Positions 1-4,703 of a stretch of DNA of 4,703 nucleotides are shown one piece after another. This stretch comes from a virus (taxonomy: Duplodnaviria; Heunggongvirae; Uroviricota; Caudoviricetes). The stretch lies in IMG/VR virus record IMGVR_UViG_2667527818_000004; one strand, written 5' to 3'. The notes under the pieces were generated by a model. The model worked only from the letters and a program-made list of their open reading frames with translations. It made no database searches and was not told the origin of the DNA. How positions within the stretch are numbered: position 1 is the first letter of the stretch; every line of letters begins with the position of its first letter. The position numbers were made by a program, and so were the translations under genes.

Positions 1-6
1 TAAGAC

Positions 7-26
7 TATCACTTATTTAAGTGATA
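7..26. promoter_or_regulatory. Dyad-symmetric candidate operator upstream of the first plus-strand gene
   Basis: Perfect 9-bp inverted repeat TATCACTTA (7-15) / TAAGTGATA (18-26) with a 2-bp spacer. Nearby are a weak -35-like TTGTCT (31-36) and an SD-like GGGAGG (66-71). Upstream context is cut off by the window edge, and the site could instead lie inside coding sequence if the 616-aa gene starts upstream. Confidence 0.3.
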
Positions 27-70
27 TTGGTTGTCTGGAGATTCAGGGGGCCAGTCTATTAGCGTGGGAG

Positions 71-1921
71 GTGCTCCTCTTCTTGGTACTGATGGCACTC
101 CAGTTAATGGCCAAAGCAGCTGATAATGCAGACTGGAAGGCCCGCTGGGGTAGCGTCCATCACACAGACCGTACGTTGTTAGCACATTATCGCGCGTCGT
201 TGAAAAGCGCCATTCAGCGCAAGGCTAATATCACTCAAGCCATCTCCCGCTATGAGAAATTATTGAACCGTACTCAGAAGGCCGCGACGGATATCAAACG
301 CCTGCGCCCGCTGGTGGAGGATGCAATAAATAAAGGCATTCTGGATGTTGATCCTGATCTGGTTAACCATGCGAATGAGTTCCTTGTTATCGGCGATCGC
401 TCATGGCGTGTAGGCCAATACTACGATTGTGCCGGTGATATCGTTCGCATTAAGTCGCTGGACTTCGACAGCCAGCGCGCAGACGTGGAGATCATCTTTA
501 CCTTCAAAGGTACCAAATCGGGTAACTGGGATGTGAAGACGCTGGATAAACAGGTTGATGTAATTCCCGATGAAGATGCTGTTATGCAGAAAATCAGTGG
601 TGGCGTCTCCATCGCCGGGATTAACGACATCATTTCCTGTGACGATTTCTACCGTTTCCAGCAGCGCGGCATGATCAAAATCACTGACTCATACGGCGTT
701 CAGACTACAGAGTCAGGCTATAGCATCGATTTTGTTGGTACCTATACGGACCCACTGAAGCATGCGGTTTACCCGGATCGCCGTGACGGCGCGCTGAAGT
801 CGTCAATTGCAAAATGGGTGCTTGGTATGATGTCGGAAGGGAATAACCGCCAGATCCGTTCGGCAGAAACATTCCTGGTTGAACTGTTTGGCTCCAATTA
901 TGGCGATGTAATCGCGTCATACGGAGATACGCTATCCCCTGAAGCAATTCAGGAGAAAATAGCGGATGCGATCGCCAGAATGCCGGAAAAAACAAGCCAG
1001 GGGGCTACTCGTAACGGGGATTCTGAACTTGAAGTCACCAATGCCATTTTCGGTACCAATGAGTTCCGGGCGTCAGATTATGAGATCACCACAGCACAGT
1101 TTGGCACCATTGGCATTTACAGCAATAAAGACGAGATCAAACAGTCAATGGACGCTGCAAGCGCGCGCATTGCAGCAGAACGCAAAGCCAATCTGAATCA
1201 TGCAGTTTCCGCGCTGACTCAATCGTGGGTAACAGCAATCAGGGAGGCCGCCACCACAGGAAAAATCACACCGGCAATTGCGGATGTCGTAAACGACGGC
1301 TCTAAATTTATGGATGCCTATAAAATGGATGCGGTGCAGTTGCCATCAGCCTATGGTCAACTCAGCTATCGCATGACCTACAACCTGGTATCAATGTTTT
1401 CCGACCTTGCCATCCTTGGGCTGGTGGATCTTAACGAGGTTACGCCGGAATTGCTCAGCATGCGCAAGAATCATGTGGAGATATTGCAGAGAATTAACAC
1501 GGTTCTTGCCGGGCGCACCGATGAAGAGAAACAGGCCGACGCTGATCGGATAAACCTGGCCCTTGGCAACATCACGGAGGAAGAGATTGCCGCCAGAAAC
1601 GAGAAACAAGAAGAGTTATCATCAATACAGGGTGATGCCACCAGCATAGCTCAGTCTCTTGGTCTGAATTATCGCGTATCCACCGCCGACCTGAAGATGA
1701 TGTTCGCACCAAAATTCGCCGCTGGCGAGGTATTTGGGCTTCAGGAAGCCTCAGGCATGAAAGGCGTTCTTTTCCGTGCGAAAGACGCAATCAAGGCGAA
1801 ATTCGGCGCTCGCTGGCTGCCAGCGAAGGCGAAGAACAGCGATTTCCCGGGTAACTGGTGGATTATCGAGACAAAACACAACGTGGCGGACGTTCTGGCC
1901 GTCATCCAACAATACGCATAA
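71..1921 (+). CDS. Hypothetical protein, 616 aa, function unknown; first gene of a probable three-gene plus-strand operon
   Basis: Long uninterrupted ORF ending at TAA 1919-1921, about 50-52% GC. The frame is open back to the window edge (no stop in positions 2-70), so the true start is ambiguous: GTG 71 overlaps an SD-like GGGAGG (66-71), and TTG 83 or ATG 89 are alternatives, or the gene may begin upstream of the window. No Walker A (P-loop) motif found by eye. Hydrophobic N-terminal segment LLFLVLMALQLMA. Confidence 0.7.
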   Translation: MLLFLVLMALQLMAKAADNADWKARWGSVHHTDRTLLAHYRASLKSAIQRKANITQAISRYEKLLNRTQKAATDIKRLRPLVEDAINKGILDVDPDLVNHANEFLVIGDRSWRVGQYYDCAGDIVRIKSLDFDSQRADVEIIFTFKGTKSGNWDVKTLDKQVDVIPDEDAVMQKISGGVSIAGINDIISCDDFYRFQQRGMIKITDSYGVQTTESGYSIDFVGTYTDPLKHAVYPDRRDGALKSSIAKWVLGMMSEGNNRQIRSAETFLVELFGSNYGDVIASYGDTLSPEAIQEKIADAIARMPEKTSQGATRNGDSELEVTNAIFGTNEFRASDYEITTAQFGTIGIYSNKDEIKQSMDAASARIAAERKANLNHAVSALTQSWVTAIREAATTGKITPAIADVVNDGSKFMDAYKMDAVQLPSAYGQLSYRMTYNLVSMFSDLAILGLVDLNEVTPELLSMRKNHVEILQRINTVLAGRTDEEKQADADRINLALGNITEEEIAARNEKQEELSSIQGDATSIAQSLGLNYRVSTADLKMMFAPKFAAGEVFGLQEASGMKGVLFRAKDAIKAKFGARWLPAKAKNSDFPGNWWIIETKHNVADVLAVIQQYA

Positions 1922-1927
1922 CAGGAG

Positions 1928-1945
1928 CGCCCGGTTCGCCGGGCG
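1928..1945 (+). promoter_or_regulatory. Intercistronic GC-rich RNA hairpin with UUCG tetraloop between the 616-aa and 146-aa genes
   Basis: cgcccgg (1928-1934) pairs with ccgggcg (1939-1945), giving 7 G:C pairs around the loop ttcg (1935-1938), plus a possible G1927:U1946 wobble. AGGAG (1923-1927) lies immediately 5' of the stem and the ATG (1955) 9 nt 3' of it. No U-tract follows, so it is not a classic intrinsic terminator. Confidence 0.4.
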
Positions 1946-1954
1946 TCGCATAAT

Positions 1955-2395
1955 ATGGCCACACTATCTGATACAATAAAACCGAATAAAACATATCTTG
2001 AGGCGGTACTCCGTACAGCGTTGTTAGGAAAGACAGAAGACGAATACGTTGATTTCTTCCTGTCAGGGCTACGCGGGCGATTACTGAAAAATCCCCGCCT
2101 GTACCGCAGCTATGGTCCATACTGGTCGGAAATTAAAAAATTATTACTGGAGCGCGGTTATGGTAATTTCGGTCGTCTCGTTGACCGTGACGTTCGCAAA
2201 ATTTACCGTTATGACCGCCCGGCGCTAACACTCATAGCCGCGACGCTCTACAGCCAGGAGCGTTTTGATAATGGTCAGATATACTCAGCCTGGCATTTAC
2301 TGCCAGTGCCTGAAGAGGTTGACGACCAGGACTATGAGTTTGAGTCTTACGATTTGGAAGTTGAAGCCTTGGCACAGGCTGGAGAGAAAACTTGA
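1955..2395 (+). CDS. Hypothetical protein, 146 aa, with acidic C-terminal tail; function unknown
   Basis: ATG at 1955 lies 33 nt after the upstream stop. The ORF has the same GC content as, and sits in tandem with, the 616-aa gene. The C-terminus is rich in D/E (EEVDDQDYEFESYDLEVE). Stop TGA 2393-2395 overlaps the start of the next ORF. No canonical SD directly upstream; an AGGAG at 1923-1927 is separated from the ATG by a hairpin. Confidence 0.6.
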   Translation: MATLSDTIKPNKTYLEAVLRTALLGKTEDEYVDFFLSGLRGRLLKNPRLYRSYGPYWSEIKKLLLERGYGNFGRLVDRDVRKIYRYDRPALTLIAATLYSQERFDNGQIYSAWHLLPVPEEVDDQDYEFESYDLEVEALAQAGEKT

Positions 2396-2640
2396 AAAAG
2401 CGATACTACACAGTAAAGCATGGGACGCTACGAGCATTACAAGAGTTTGCTGACAAGCATAACGTTGAGGTGCGCAGGGAAGGGGGAAGTAAAGCTCTGC
2501 GCATGTACCGTCCGGACGGAAAATGGCGGACGGTCGTCGATTTCAAAACTAACAGCGTTCCCCAGGGCGTCCGCGACCGGGCATTCGAGGAATGGGAGCA
2601 GATCATCATAGATAACGCATTGCTCCTGAATGCTGATTAA
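2392..2640 (+). CDS. Hypothetical small basic protein, 82 aa (TTG start); weak motif-level resemblance to HicA/YcfA-like small RNA-binding proteins, unverified
   Basis: TTG 2392-2394 overlaps the TGA stop of the upstream ORF (TTGA), suggesting translational coupling. SD-like GGAGAG at 2381-2386 sits 5 nt upstream of the TTG. Stop TAA 2638-2640 is followed 5 nt later by a hairpin. The alternative first in-frame ATG (about 2500) would give only 46 aa. The HicA-like resemblance (GGSKAL...RPDGKWRTVV...VPQGV) is recalled from memory and lacks the usual His residues. Confidence 0.5.
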   Translation: MKKRYYTVKHGTLRALQEFADKHNVEVRREGGSKALRMYRPDGKWRTVVDFKTNSVPQGVRDRAFEEWEQIIIDNALLLNAD

Positions 2641-2644
2641 GAAC

Positions 2645-2673
2645 TCTCCGGCCTAGGGAGATTAGGCCGGAGA
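2645..2673. terminator. Probable bidirectional transcription terminator hairpin between convergent operons
   Basis: Perfect 11-bp inverted repeat tctccggccta (2645-2655) / taggccggaga (2663-2673) with a 7-nt loop gggagat. It lies 5 nt after the plus-strand stop (2640) and 8 nt before the minus-strand gene end (2682). There is no clean U-tract on the plus strand; the minus-strand transcript would continue as GUUCUUAAUC (partial U-tract). Confidence 0.5.
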
Positions 2674-2681
2674 TAAATATA

Positions 2682-3986
2682 CTATATAAACTTAGATATA
2701 ATATCGTGAATCTGTTGTAGCGGGATTTCTTCCATCTTACTCTTAATAAGAGAGCGGTTAGATGCTGTCAGTGAAGGCCATTTTGTTTTCCAGGCTAGAT
2801 ATGCTCGCCATGAGTAGCCTGTTTCGTAAGGTTTATTCATATAAGTCATTGAGTGTTCAACCGCATGTATGTATTTTTTCTCAAAGTTGGTTCCTTTTAC
2901 TTCAAATAAACTACCGAAATAAATAAGCCATTTTGCCAGGTGTTCATACTGCTCCCATGCGCTAGACTCTTTAGTAAGATCTATTTTTTTATCTATTATA
3001 TCACAAAAAACATTTAATACCTTTTCATCATTCCAGCTATATCCAGATGATGAAATGGAGGAAATGATATGATAAAAAGAATCCTCTAACTTCAAGAACT
3101 CTATTTTATACTCTCTTCCGTTTTTTATTACCGATTTGATTGAGTGCCTCAATTTGTCTTTTATTTTTTTTGCTTCTGGAATTTTCTTGTTAAGTTTTCT
3201 AAAGAAATCAGACACCTCTGTTTTATCTATAACCCTAATCCCAAAGCAGGAAAAATAGTAATCTTTAATAGGTTGCAATAGTTTCCCTCGGGAAATAAGG
3301 AAAATATTGGAGGACATTACGTTGTCCCGTGAAAATACCTTATATTCATTTATAATCGCCTTGAGGTTCGCGTCACTTAGAGAATAGCCAAGAATAACAA
3401 TAGTGTTTTCATGTAGAACTGTGCTTAGTTTATTTGAAAAGTAAGAATTACCATTTATAAATCTGAAATAATCCTCGCTAGTAACAACCATATCTGATGG
3501 GGAGTCTATAGAGCCGTGAACATGGTAGACTTTAACCTCACAATTATATTTTGGAATTGGCAGGCCGGGGGTGATTGTACACGTTCGATTCTCTCCAGCC
3601 AGTTTTTCTGCTAACTTGTCATAATTTGTCGTAATTACTTTAAATGTGTTTTCTTTGAAAAAGTCTTGAATATATTCAATTGATGGATCAAGTTCGATTG
3701 AGGCTATGATTTTCTCAATCTCCTGGTAAATATTTTTCCCCGAAAGTATAAATTTTAGTGCAATAACCTGAGCAGCCTCTTCAAGGCTAAGGTCTTTTGC
3801 TTTTCCATCAGGAAATAATTCCTCTTTGAGTGAGTCACCATCCTTCAATAAACCGCACAGTTGCTCCAATAAAGATTGCCAACTTGGGGCTTTATCATCA
3901 GAAACAGCCTTTGAAAATCCAGTGCCTGTAAGAAAGCACAGCCTATGTGTAGCTGCTGCATAGGCAATTTCTATATACTCGCTCAT
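2682..3986 (-). CDS. SIR2-like (sirtuin/DHS-like NAD-binding) domain protein, 434 aa; ThsA-type SIR2 N-terminal domain plus an uncharacterised C-terminal domain; candidate NADase anti-phage effector
   Basis: ATG at 3986-3984 (minus) is preceded by GGAG (plus 3993-3996) with a 6-nt spacer. Stop TAG at 2684-2682. Motifs read from the translation: FLTGTGFS (residues 18-25, glycine-rich NAD-binding loop), VITTNYDKL (residues 117-125, N121) and VYHVHGSID (residues 153-161, H155/H157), followed by IVILGYSLSDANL. These match the order and spacing of SIR2_2-type defence sirtuins as I recall them for ThsA. The gene is about 30% GC against about 50% in the flanks. Confidence 0.8.
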   Translation of the reverse strand: MSEYIEIAYAAATHRLCFLTGTGFSKAVSDDKAPSWQSLLEQLCGLLKDGDSLKEELFPDGKAKDLSLEEAAQVIALKFILSGKNIYQEIEKIIASIELDPSIEYIQDFFKENTFKVITTNYDKLAEKLAGENRTCTITPGLPIPKYNCEVKVYHVHGSIDSPSDMVVTSEDYFRFINGNSYFSNKLSTVLHENTIVILGYSLSDANLKAIINEYKVFSRDNVMSSNIFLISRGKLLQPIKDYYFSCFGIRVIDKTEVSDFFRKLNKKIPEAKKIKDKLRHSIKSVIKNGREYKIEFLKLEDSFYHIISSISSSGYSWNDEKVLNVFCDIIDKKIDLTKESSAWEQYEHLAKWLIYFGSLFEVKGTNFEKKYIHAVEHSMTYMNKPYETGYSWRAYLAWKTKWPSLTASNRSLIKSKMEEIPLQQIHDIISKFI

Positions 3987-4042
3987 TACTTACTCCATTT
4001 ACTTATAGTTCTACGGAGAAGTATACCCTAATGCATTGACGT

Positions 4043-4684
4043 TTATAGATAATTTCCTTTTCCTGTTAATACTCCCTTAGGCACCTGTTTTTGTGCCAGC
4101 GTTTGGGTTCCGCGAATTATGTTAATCAGAGGGCTTAGTAACGATGGTTCCTGGCGTGCCTCAACTTCTCCAGCCATTGCCCTGATGTAGTCTGCGCTGG
4201 CAACGTTGTTGTATTCCGTCGCAAAGCAACATAGTAACGTCAGAACATGCTCTGTCGTTATTTCGCTCCAGTTGATGTTGAAAAATTCATCGCCTTTTTT
4301 GTCGTGTTCGGAATCGAAGATGCTTTGGTGGAGGATGTATTTGCCGGATTCTTTGCGCGGTAACTTGATCGCTTTCTGGCGTTCCAATTCCTTGTAAATC
4401 TGCATTGCTTCAATCAGTACCGGCCTGCCGTTCATAAAGGGATCTCGCAACCTTACACGCTGGCCAACTCGACCAGTAATAAAGCTGTTTTCCTCTTCCA
4501 CCAGCACGATAAAACCCTTTTCCTCTTTTTCTCGCAATTCGCGCAGCAGCTGGAGTTCCATGTCGCGGCGGCGTTCAGGGTAGCTGGTCCGCTCAGCCAT
4601 TATCAGCTCATTGTTGATCCATGCAGCAGTCATTGACGCCGGTTTGCCGACGCTCATTGAAACAACGCATATTTTCTTATCCAT
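4043..4684 (-). CDS. Hypothetical protein, about 214-217 aa, function unknown; encoded immediately upstream of and co-oriented with the SIR2-like gene
   Basis: ORF on the minus strand with stop TAA (plus 4043-4045). Likely ATG start at 4684-4682 giving MDKKICVV...; the ORF track's TTG at 4696 is an alternative, and the frame stays open to the window edge at 4703, so a 5' extension cannot be excluded. About 49% GC. Predicted beta-alpha-beta N-terminus (KICVVSMSV ... GFIVLVEEE). No P-loop, and no TIR or HEPN motif that I can support. Confidence 0.65.
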   Translation of the reverse strand: MDKKICVVSMSVGKPASMTAAWINNELIMAERTSYPERRRDMELQLLRELREKEEKGFIVLVEEENSFITGRVGQRVRLRDPFMNGRPVLIEAMQIYKELERQKAIKLPRKESGKYILHQSIFDSEHDKKGDEFFNINWSEITTEHVLTLLCCFATEYNNVASADYIRAMAGEVEARQEPSLLSPLINIIRGTQTLAQKQVPKGVLTGKGNYL

Positions 4685-4703
4685 AGCGCCCCACAAAAAA
4701 GAA

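What the first reader, a model, noticed from the sequence alone, without database searches (positions are those of the whole stretch)
2674..4042. Sharp compositional island: the SIR2 gene is about 30% GC inside about 50% GC flanks
Sampled 60-bp stretches inside 2682-3986 give 22-33% GC, against 40-58% in the 217-aa gene and about 50% in the plus-strand operon. The transitions coincide with the terminator hairpin at about 2674 and the 56-nt intergenic region at about 3990-4040. This points to recent horizontal acquisition of a single-gene cargo inserted downstream of a resident gene, a pattern common for defence genes in prophage or island hotspots.
Basis: seen in the sequence. Interest (0 to 1): 0.6.

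Follow-up and report, generated by a model that had tools for sequence, protein, structure and literature searches.

The report
SIR2 defence cassette in phage P1 hotspot
The AT-rich island is real: it is a swappable one-gene cassette, encoding a probable NAD-destroying anti-phage protein, in the slot of P1-like phage-plasmids where phage P1 keeps its restriction enzyme, and that slot was already known to be variable and AT-rich.

Summary
The gene at 2682-3986 is 35.3% GC (GC3 33%), against 50.2% to its left and 47.7% in the 217-aa gene. Maximum-likelihood breakpoints fall at about 2670 and 4070 (z = -10.4).

The window is a P1-like phage-plasmid segment: darB (cut by an IS), ulx, lxc | cargo 2641-4042 | mat. 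Homology between P1 relatives stops at the lxc stop codon and resumes at the mat stop codon.

The slot is empty in phage RCS47 and holds the EcoP1I type III restriction-modification genes in P1. Elsewhere it holds RelA/SpoT, PIN, DUF2971, AraC+EAL, or one of three SIR2 alleles. Every cargo is 33-37% GC. Published work already describes this slot as variable and low in G+C, though without mentioning SIR2.

The cargo protein (434 aa) has a SIR2_2 domain with invariant Asn121 and His157, followed by a 175-aa alpha-solenoid. Its nearest structural match is DSR2. It has no conserved partner gene and is under purifying selection (dN/dS 0.12). Homologues sit in prophage ends and defence islands and are AT-rich in every GC-richer host examined.

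It is most likely a stand-alone sensor-NADase abortive-infection protein. That function is inferred, not tested. The case is ordinary in kind and modest in interest.

The parts
1..104 (.). Context only. An insertion-sequence end (about 1-58) plus 46 nt of unplaced sequence that truncate darB.
   Evidence: 1-104 matches 20,420 places in 4,700 of 5,426 E. coli genomes, but only 17 records cover at least 80% of it; an IS3-family transposase lies directly upstream in pF719-2. P1-like plasmids match only from position 105.
71..1921 (+). C-terminal part of darB (P1 defence-against-restriction methylase/helicase). It is a pseudogene here because the IS cuts it. This is conserved backbone.
   Evidence: phrog_1685, profile positions 1648-2278 of 2278; annotated DarB in P1, P7 and RCS47. 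RefSeq marks it incomplete.
1955..2395 (+). ulx (Ulx-like anti-restriction), conserved backbone.
   Evidence: phrog_1629, 5.6e-65. Searches show the same gene at the same place.
2392..2640 (+). lxc (modulator of the C1 repressor). This is the left flank of the slot; homology between P1-like elements ends at its stop codon (2638-2640).
   Evidence: alignment A1 has near-invariant columns up to the stop codon and unrelated sequence afterwards. P1 annotation of lxc.
2641..4042 (.). The cargo cassette (1402 bp, 35.7% GC) that occupies the lxc-mat slot.
   Evidence: junction alignments; GC of all cargos; 65 plasmids carry it at 93-100% identity.
2645..2673 (.). GC-rich hairpin between the convergent lxc and SIR2 genes. 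It is terminator-like and carried by the cargo.
   Evidence: 11-bp perfect stem.: -22.2 kcal/mol, z = -6.05. Seven of nine slot states have their own, unrelated hairpin at this spot.
2682..3986 (-). Gene for a 434-aa SIR2_2-family protein (RefSeq WP_000006034.1).
   Evidence: ORF. PF13289, 84 bits against a cutoff of 24.5; phrog_7567 matched over its full length; dN/dS 0.12.
3216..3986 (-). SIR2 (Rossmann-type) catalytic domain, residues 1-257. Asn121 is encoded at 3624-3626 and His157 at 3516-3518.
   Evidence: alternating strands and helices up to residue 253. N121 and H157 are invariant in 39 homologues. Searches confirm the codons; aligns to the TTNYD and HG motifs of DSR2 and ThsA. The DSR2 H171A and KomC H146N mutant sequences score 3-4 bits lower than the wild-type sequences.
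2685..3215 (-). C-terminal all-helical alpha-solenoid domain, residues 258-434. Proposed sensor or regulatory domain.
3987..4042 (-). 56-nt spacer between mat and the SIR2 gene, with GGAG six nt before the ATG. It is nearly identical in all three SIR2 alleles.
   Evidence: sequence; 0-1 mismatches between alleles a, b, c and L020, while the coding DNA is only 63% identical; no sigma-70-like site and no terminator-like site on the minus strand here.
4043..4696 (-). mat (maturation control). This is the right flank of the slot; homology resumes at its stop codon.
   Evidence: phrog_1837. (annotation); alignment A2; breakpoints inside its 3' part differ between plasmids.

Best explanation
The island is a 1.4-kb cargo cassette in the known variable slot between lxc and mat of P1-like (Punavirus) phage-plasmids. 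Published names for the slot are RD-1 and variable region 1, the res-mod region. Phage P1 carries its type III restriction-modification system EcoP1I there.

Cassettes are exchanged between related elements by homologous recombination in the conserved flanks. Each cassette brings its own gene and usually its own terminator hairpin. All are AT-rich because they come from a mobile pool of AT-rich genes, most of them defence-type.

This cassette encodes one 434-aa protein: an N-terminal SIR2 NAD-binding/hydrolysing domain with an intact Asn/His active site, fused to a short alpha-solenoid.

Proposed mechanism (inferred, not shown): in a cell carrying the plasmid prophage the enzyme is held inactive. 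When a competing phage infects, one of its proteins binds the alpha-solenoid. The SIR2 domain then hydrolyses NAD+, and the cell stops supporting phage growth. This is abortive infection, as in DSR2 but with a much smaller protein.

Shown here: slot identity, variable occupancy, the composition of all cargos, domain architecture, conserved catalytic residues, purifying selection, and the absence of a conserved partner gene. Inferred: NADase activity, the trigger, the anti-phage phenotype, and how the gene is transcribed.
For: Slot identity. The window is colinear with darB-ulx-lxc and mat-ref-c8-cre of P1. P1 has res and mod between mat and lxc.

Variable occupancy. RCS47 has only 39 bp there. 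SJ46 has RelA/SpoT, JL22 a PIN protein, MH422554 a DUF2971 protein, and Ro157c2YLVW an AraC plus EAL pair. PLSDB counts are: 702 plasmids with the flanks, 65 SIR2-a, 58 SIR2-b/c, 108 res, 88 DUF2971, 123 AraC+EAL, 22 PIN, 21 RelA, and at most 71 empty or short.

Exact junctions lie at the two stop codons.

Composition. All cargos, including P1 res-mod, are 33-37% GC, against flanks of 47-51%.

Literature. The slot is reported as variable and low in G+C (PMC9603915), and as flanked by mat and lxc with variable content (PMC10865808).

Recombination. mat breakpoints differ between plasmids. Allele dS of 0.28 far exceeds backbone divergence of 1-2.4%. No flanking repeats were found.

Protein. PF13289 at 84 bits. 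N121 and H157 are invariant. The model has pLDDT 84 and pTM 0.82. The top Foldseek hits are DSR2, ThsA and KomC, all NADase defence effectors. The C-terminal domain is an alpha-solenoid, like the DSR2 C-terminal domain that binds the phage tail tube (PMC11850899).

Homologues. They are 55-60% identical and the same length. They sit at a prophage end beside the integrase in E. coli, beside type I R-M and GmrSD in Marinobacter, and near PDDEXK and SMC-like genes in Paracidovorax. The neighbouring genes differ in each case. dN/dS is 0.12.
Against: No experiment links this family to phage defence. The accession was not found in the paper library.

It matches no defence family over its full length. 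PADLOC and NCBIfam hits cover only the SIR2 core.

No sigma-70-like promoter was found upstream of the gene, and it lies 56 nt downstream of mat. In P1, mat is controlled by the C1 repressor and a late promoter. If the gene is only co-transcribed with mat, it might be silent in lysogens, which would be awkward for a defence gene.

One common cargo of the same slot (AraC+EAL) is not defence-like, so the slot is not exclusively for defence.

The PLSDB counts for the other cargos were not individually verified to lie in this slot.
Confidence: 0.72

Rival explanations
1. The SIR2 protein serves the P1-like element itself rather than defence. For example, it could be a protein deacylase or ADP-ribosyltransferase that modifies host or phage proteins during lytic growth, expressed together with mat.
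For: RefSeq names it an NAD-dependent protein deacylase. It lies 56 nt downstream of mat on the same strand, with no promoter-like or terminator-like site between them. In P1, mat is driven by a C1-controlled promoter and a late promoter. The AraC+EAL cargo shows the slot can carry regulators.
Against: Only about 18% of P1-like plasmids have any SIR2 allele, and some have an empty slot, so it is dispensable for the P1 life cycle. Its closest sequence and structure relatives are NADase defence effectors, not deacetylases. Homologues occur outside phages, in defence-island-like surroundings. PF13289 is the SIR2-like branch found in defence proteins.
Confidence: 0.13
2. It is a selfish stabilisation (addiction) or inter-element competition module. 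It would kill or arrest cells that lose the plasmid or acquire a rival plasmid, replacing the post-segregational role ascribed to res-mod.
For: The slot normally holds a restriction-modification system, which PMC6906374 lists among P1's plasmid addiction systems. NAD+ depletion is toxic. The relAP1 cargo of the same slot imposes a conditional fitness cost (PMC10865808).
Against: There is no antitoxin-like second gene in the cassette (only one ORF fills 2641-4042). A single stable protein gives no obvious way to sense plasmid loss. Homologues sit in chromosomes.
Confidence: 0.08
3. The AT-rich composition arose in place, through mutation bias or selection on an ancestral P1 gene. Alternatively, the segment arrived by transposition or site-specific insertion rather than by cassette exchange.
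For: An IS lies nearby in this particular plasmid. IS elements do hit this slot elsewhere: IS5 in P1 mod and ISKpn26 in pKD0845-2.
Against: The site is empty in RCS47, and at least seven unrelated cargos sit between identical flanks. No direct or inverted repeats bracket 2641-4042 and the cassette has no recombinase. Homologues in unrelated bacteria have the same low GC. The same cassette sits in intact P1-like plasmids that lack the IS.
Confidence: 0.03

Closest known systems
Variable region 1 / RD-1 (the res-mod region between lxc and mat) of P1-like phage-plasmids
   Same: The flanking genes, junctions and low G+C are the same, with content that varies between elements. P1 and P7 carry type III R-M here. 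relAP1 is a published alternative cargo (PMC9603915, PMC6906374, PMC10865808).
   Different: The three papers checked do not mention a SIR2 cargo (0 occurrences). The counts made here suggest SIR2 alleles fill about 18% of such slots in PLSDB.
DSR2 (defence-associated sirtuin 2, Bacillus subtilis)
   Same: Both are single-chain proteins with an N-terminal SIR2 NADase domain carrying the same Asn/His motifs, followed by helical-repeat regions. DSR2 is the top structural match (Foldseek E 2e-11) and a sequence match in the SIR2 core. DSR2 senses a phage tail tube protein through its alpha-solenoid C-terminal domain (PMC11850899).
   Different: The protein is 434 aa, against about 1,005-1,220 aa for DSR2. 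It scores 30.5 bits on NCBIfam Dsr2, where the cutoff is 1,400. Identity is about 15%. Its solenoid is about 175 aa and shows no specific similarity to the DSR2 middle or C-terminal domains. The trigger and oligomeric state are unknown.
Thoeris ThsA (SIR2-SLOG effector)
   Same: The SIR2 domain is similar (PDB 7uxt E 3e-9, 6lhx E 4e-8; PADLOC ThsA 7e-18), and the overall length is similar.
   Different: The C-terminal domain is all-helical, not a SLOG fold. There is no ThsB/TIR partner in the cassette or next to homologues.
P2/P4 prophage and satellite defence hotspots
   Same: A fixed slot between conserved phage genes holds interchangeable, mostly single- or few-gene anti-phage systems, including SIR2-domain proteins (PMC9122126).
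   Different: The mobile element is different (a plasmid prophage) and so are the flanking genes. No cargo of this slot other than res-mod has been tested for defence.

Membership tests
P1-like phage-plasmid variable region 1 / RD-1 (lxc-mat slot) | Lies between orthologues of lxc and mat in a darB-ulx-lxc ... mat-ref-cre backbone | tested here: met
   Junctions fall at the two stop codons.
P1-like phage-plasmid variable region 1 / RD-1 (lxc-mat slot) | Content differs between elements while the flanks stay 95-99% identical | tested here: met
   empty, R-M, RelA/SpoT, PIN, DUF2971, AraC+EAL, and three SIR2 alleles.
P1-like phage-plasmid variable region 1 / RD-1 (lxc-mat slot) | Low G+C relative to the backbone | tested here: met
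   all cargos are 33-37% GC against 47-51%. PMC9603915 states this for res-mod.
SIR2_2 (Pfam PF13289) NAD-binding domain | Passes the curated domain score | tested here: met
   84 bits against a cutoff of 24.5, residues 117-245.
SIR2-type NADase defence effectors | Catalytic Asn and His conserved (DSR2 H171 and ThsA H152 equivalents) | tested here: met
   N121 and H157 are invariant in 39 homologues. They align to the TTNYD and HG motifs of DSR2 and ThsA. Codons verified.
SIR2-type NADase defence effectors | NAD+ hydrolysis triggered by phage infection, with protection of the culture | not testable with these tools
   Needs enzymology and plaque assays.
DSR2 | Full-length match to the Dsr2 equivalog model; protein of about 1,000-1,200 aa | tested here: not met
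   30.5 bits against a cutoff of 1,400. The protein is 434 aa. The PADLOC Dsr2 hit covers only profile positions 121-240 of 1,222.
Thoeris (ThsA/ThsB) | SLOG (or Macro/TM) signal-binding domain C-terminal to SIR2 | tested here: not met
   Residues 258-434 are predicted all-helical with confident pLDDT. ThsA profile hits end at position 215-230.
Thoeris (ThsA/ThsB) | Adjacent TIR-domain ThsB gene | tested here: not met
   The cassette has one ORF. The window's other proteins have no TIR or any other Pfam hit. No TIR gene lies next to homologues.
Lamassu LmuA (SIR2 effector type) | LmuA C-terminal region plus an adjacent SMC-like LmuB gene | tested here: not met
   The PADLOC LmuA hit covers only profile positions 21-221 of 433. 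There is no SMC-like gene in the window or in the E. coli, Marinobacter or Pseudoalteromonas loci. One Paracidovorax locus has an SMC-like gene about 1 kb away on the other strand; this was not pursued.
SIR2-HerA (Nezha) | Adjacent HerA helicase gene | tested here: not met
   No such gene in the window or next to homologues. PADLOC SIR2 (SIR2-HerA type) hits are weak, 2e-6 or worse.
PADLOC candidate PDC-S25 | Full-length match to the candidate's profile | tested here: inconclusive
   This is the best PADLOC hit (9e-24), but it covers only residues 100-253 against profile positions 127-283 of 517. They share the SIR2 core and probably differ in architecture.

The most novel reading that the evidence does not exclude
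This 434-aa protein is the smallest stand-alone, DSR-type immune protein: a SIR2 NADase switched on directly by a phage protein through a 175-aa alpha-solenoid. The three alleles found in the same P1 slot (59% and 87% identical, diverging most towards the C-terminus) would then recognise different phages. P1-like plasmids would be trading a restriction system for interchangeable abortive-infection sensors.
Probability: 0.4. Interest if true: 0.5.

Novelty: new member of a known kind. Interest (0 to 1): 0.35.

Why it matters
P1-like phage-plasmids are common in E. coli and Salmonella and spread resistance genes. Knowing which defence gene fills their res-mod slot helps predict which phages, including therapeutic ones, a lysogen will resist.

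The SIR2 family here is compact, widespread in Proteobacteria and untested. It offers a small model for how a sirtuin NADase is gated by a helical-repeat sensor.

The finding itself, an AT-rich cargo in a known variable slot, adds a catalogue entry rather than a new principle.

Tried and rejected
(1) Partner gene. I looked for a conserved neighbour of homologues in five genomic settings and found none. A 207-aa gene just upstream in Pseudoalteromonas resembled the mat-SIR2 spacing, but it has no similarity to Mat (E 0.3).

(2) Insertion signatures. No direct or inverted repeats bracket 2641-4042, so transposition or site-specific insertion was rejected.

(3) Own promoter. The consensus scan found no sigma-70-like site upstream of the SIR2 start on the minus strand. 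How the gene is transcribed remains open.

(4) Filing under ThsA, DSR1/2, LmuA, SIR2-HerA or PDC-S25. All hits cover only the SIR2 core.

(6) Diversifying selection. dN/dS is 0.05-0.25 in every segment, so there is no positive-selection signal at this resolution, although the C-terminal half diverges most between alleles.

(7) Literature. Searches for the protein accession and for PDC-S25 gave nothing relevant. The P1 genome paper (PMC523184) is not held.

(8) A match to only the 56-nt spacer in pKD0845-2 suggested a non-SIR2 cargo sharing it. It turned out to be a SIR2 allele split by ISKpn26.
Full report
OBSERVATION

A 200-bp sliding window shows GC of 48-55% from 1 to about 2600, a fall to 29-40% between about 2600 and 4100, and a return to 44-53%. 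Exact values:
- 1-2640: 50.2%
- SIR2 ORF 2682-3986: 35.3%
- spacer 3987-4042: 35.7%
- 217-aa gene 4043-4696: 47.7%

Third-position GC is 33% in the SIR2 gene and 46-58% in the four other genes. Otherwise the picture is right.

The best two-breakpoint fit puts the transitions at 2670 and 4070, with a log-likelihood gain of 46. Cargo against flanks gives z = -10.4. The hairpin is at 2645-2673: an 11-bp perfect stem, -22.2 kcal/mol, and no shuffle out of 200 folds as well.

WHAT THE WINDOW IS

The window is 100% identical to E. coli plasmid pF719-2. It is 98.8-99.9% identical to dozens of plasmids of roughly 93-105 kb whose matching genes RefSeq names N-6 DNA methylase and SIR2 family protein. 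PHROG matches and phage annotations identify the genes as follows:
- darB C-terminus, 71-1921
- ulx, 1955-2395
- lxc, 2392-2640
- mat, 4043-4696, on the other strand

Downstream in pF719-2 come ref, a 103-aa hypothetical gene at the position of P1 c8, and a site-specific integrase of Cre's size (343 aa). This is the order found in phage P1. In P1 the interval between the mat stop and the lxc stop holds res and mod, the EcoP1I type III restriction-modification system. The window therefore comes from a P1-like (Punavirus) phage-plasmid in which the res-mod interval holds something else.

THE SLOT IS A CASSETTE SITE

Alignments of six elements show near-invariant sequence up to the lxc stop codon (window 2640), then unrelated sequence. 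Homology resumes at the mat stop codon (window 4043). The foreign segment is therefore 2641-4042.

The states of the slot are:
- RCS47: empty, only a 39-bp GC-rich hairpin.
- SJ46: a RelA/SpoT-domain gene, a full-length match to PADLOC candidate PDC-S33.
- JL22: a PIN-domain gene.
- MH422554: an unannotated DUF2971 gene.
- Ro157c2YLVW: an AraC-type regulator plus an EAL-domain gene.
- P1 and P7: res-mod.
- Other plasmids: two further SIR2 alleles, here called b and c. They are 59% identical in protein to this one and 87% identical to each other.

In PLSDB, 702 plasmids contain lxc or mat. Counts by cargo are 65 with this allele, 58 with alleles b or c, 108 with a P1-type res gene, 88 with the DUF2971 cargo, 123 with AraC+EAL, 22 with PIN and 21 with RelA/SpoT. 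At most 71 have an empty slot or a cargo shorter than about 1 kb. The positions of the non-SIR2 cargos were not checked one by one.

Among 5,426 complete E. coli genomes, 69 carry this allele. Of 137 matching places, 135 are on plasmids.

COMPOSITION OF THE OTHER CARGOS

Every cargo is AT-rich:
- SIR2-a 35.7%, SIR2-b 34.6%, SIR2-c 35.0%
- RelA/SpoT 36.7%
- PIN 35.1%
- DUF2971 35.3%
- AraC+EAL 33.0%
- P1 res-mod without its IS5, 35.7%

The flanks are 47-51% GC. The island is therefore a property of the slot, not of this gene alone.

The SIR2 family is also AT-rich wherever it was found:
- 33% in an E. coli prophage (flanks 49-55%)
- 39.6% in Marinobacter (flanks 53-55%)
- 42% in Paracidovorax (flanks 62-66%)
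- 37% in Pseudoalteromonas, where the genome itself is 38%

Low GC therefore marks membership of a mobile gene pool. It does not date the acquisition.

HOW CASSETTES MOVE

No direct or inverted repeats bracket the cargo, and it encodes no recombinase. Where homology to the RCS47 mat gene begins differs from plasmid to plasmid, at query positions 293 to 421.

A second SIR2-a allele (p2_115106) is 92.5% identical in the gene. The same plasmid is 97.6-99% identical in darB, ulx and lxc, and 94.6% identical in mat. Synonymous divergence between the two alleles is 0.28. The alleles are therefore much older than the backbones that carry them. This fits exchange by homologous recombination in the flanks from a standing pool.

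The 56-nt spacer and the first codons are almost identical in alleles a, b and c, although the coding DNA is 63% identical. The right-hand breakpoint for allele swaps therefore lies just inside the gene.

Seven of nine slot states, including the empty one, have a strong hairpin immediately after the lxc stop, and its sequence differs in each. The exceptions are P1, where mod runs in the same direction as lxc, and Ro157c2YLVW.

THE PROTEIN

The 434-aa product passes PF13289 (SIR2_2) at 84 bits. Database homologues are 431-444 aa with few exceptions and 54-61% identical. They come from Vibrio, Halomonas, Pseudoalteromonas, Marinobacter, Klebsiella, Pantoea, Pseudomonas, Delftia and Paracidovorax. 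Across 39 of them, 91 columns are invariant, including Asn121 in TTNYD and His155/His157 in HVHGS (codons checked).

Sequence matches to solved structures are limited to the SIR2 cores of ThsA, DSR2 and KomC. The catalytic-His mutants DSR2 H171A and KomC H146N score 3-4 bits lower than the wild-type sequences over the same stretch. This places His157 at the catalytic position.

An AlphaFold2 model built on the 39-sequence alignment is confident (pLDDT 84.3, pTM 0.82). It shows a strand-helix SIR2 fold to residue 257 and only helices after that. Foldseek against the PDB ranks DSR2 first (E 2e-11), then SeThsA, KomC and BcThsA.

dN/dS is 0.12 overall and below 0.25 in every segment, so the gene is functional.

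GENOMIC COMPANY OF HOMOLOGUES

- In E. coli chromosomes, a 56%-identical homologue is the last gene of a lambdoid prophage. It sits next to the integrase and the ccm operon.
- In Marinobacter, a homologue sits in an island beside a type I restriction subunit and a GmrSD-like gene.
- In Paracidovorax, it lies near PDDEXK and SMC-like genes.
- In Pseudoalteromonas, it lies among housekeeping genes.

The neighbouring genes differ every time, and in the P1 slot the gene is alone. It therefore works as a single protein or with universal host factors.

MOST LIKELY FUNCTION

The most likely function is a stand-alone sensor-effector of the DSR type. The solenoid would keep the SIR2 domain off until a phage protein binds, NAD+ would then be hydrolysed, and the infected cell would abort the infection. 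That would protect the lysogen population and the plasmid.

The architecture, active site, selection and context are shown here. The activity, trigger and phenotype are inferred. I put the cassette and hotspot reading at about 0.9, and the NADase defence reading at about 0.6.

The main weakness concerns expression. No promoter-like site lies upstream. In P1, mat is under C1 and late-promoter control, so co-transcription with mat alone would not obviously give expression in lysogens. For another cargo, relAP1, 134 bp of upstream sequence sufficed for a phenotype (PMC10865808). This shows that cargos can carry their own signals.

COMPARISON WITH WHAT IS KNOWN

The slot is already published. Venturini et al. 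note that res-mod is absent from three P1 variants (PMC6906374). [quoted passage not shown] A survey of 77 P1-like phage-plasmids lists res-mod as variable region 1 and states that the variable regions have low G+C (PMC9603915). None of these mentions SIR2.

The protein fails the membership tests for DSR2 (score and size), ThsA (no SLOG, no ThsB), LmuA (no LmuB, half-length match) and SIR2-HerA (no HerA). It matches PADLOC candidate PDC-S25 only in the SIR2 core. It works like a DSR-type effector but is not a member of any named system.

VERDICT

The phenomenon is a known kind of thing in a known place.

What is new is modest. SIR2 alleles fill roughly a sixth of these slots. They also define a compact, untested SIR2-solenoid family.

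Noticed in passing
window 1-104: The first roughly 58 nt match an insertion-sequence end present in 4,700 of 5,426 E. coli genomes (up to 41 copies). From memory it looks like the IS2 left end. Positions 59-104 belong neither to the IS nor to the P1-like darB match, which starts at 105, and the whole stretch occurs in only 17 records. The IS cuts darB, so the 616-aa ORF called from 71 is an artefact at its 5' end.
   Followed up: partly
L001 (pF719-2), whole locus: The exact-match source is not an intact P1-like element. It is a 118-kb mosaic plasmid with many IS copies, an autotransporter, a DMSO-reductase operon, a truncated darB and a frameshifted ref. The SIR2 cassette therefore survives in a decayed P1 remnant.
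   Followed up: no
window 2641-2685 and the same position in L002-L009: Seven of nine slot states have a strong hairpin directly after the lxc stop codon, each with a different sequence (-12 to -22 kcal/mol). The 'empty' RCS47 site consists of little else. Each cassette seems to bring its own terminator.
   Followed up: partly
window 3960-4042: The 56-nt mat-SIR2 spacer and the first codons are nearly identical in three SIR2 alleles whose coding DNA is only 63% identical. This could be a recombination boundary or a conserved expression signal. No promoter-like match was found in it.
   Followed up: partly
window 3941-3965: A 9-bp-stem palindrome (GCCTATGTG...CACATAGGC type) lies inside codons 8-16 of the SIR2 gene and was flagged as terminator-like on both strands. 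The part of this stretch compared in alleles b and c (3961-3965) differs, so it may be chance.
   Followed up: no
window 4043-4300 (mat 3' part); The point where homology to RCS47 mat begins varies between plasmids in discrete steps (query positions 293, 304, 334, 349, 360, 407, 410, 418, 421). The 3' end of mat appears to travel with particular cargos.
   Followed up: no
L011-L014, 8001-9311: A 56%-identical SIR2 homologue (33% GC) is the terminal gene of a lambdoid prophage, next to its integrase and the ccm/narP region of the E. coli chromosome. In two loci a 38-aa ORF lies 40 nt upstream of it.
   Followed up: no
L007 (OP279344, P1 'del res del mod'), 2837-4553: This P1 isolate, labelled as lacking res and mod, carries two ORFs in the slot. 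Their size, arrangement and GC (32.5%) are similar to the AraC+EAL cargo of Ro157c2YLVW. Whether they are the same cargo was not checked.
   Followed up: no
L021 (pKD0845-2), 1006-3568: A SIR2-b/c-type allele is separated from its spacer and start by an ISKpn26 insertion, a natural knockout of the cassette.
   Followed up: partly
L019 (Paracidovorax avenae), 8335-12278: About 1 kb from the SIR2 homologue, on the other strand, lie a 1,135-aa gene with no Pfam hit and a 189-aa AAA_23/SMC_N fragment. This may be a split SMC-like defence ATPase. It is the only locus where a Lamassu-like partner cannot be excluded.
   Followed up: no
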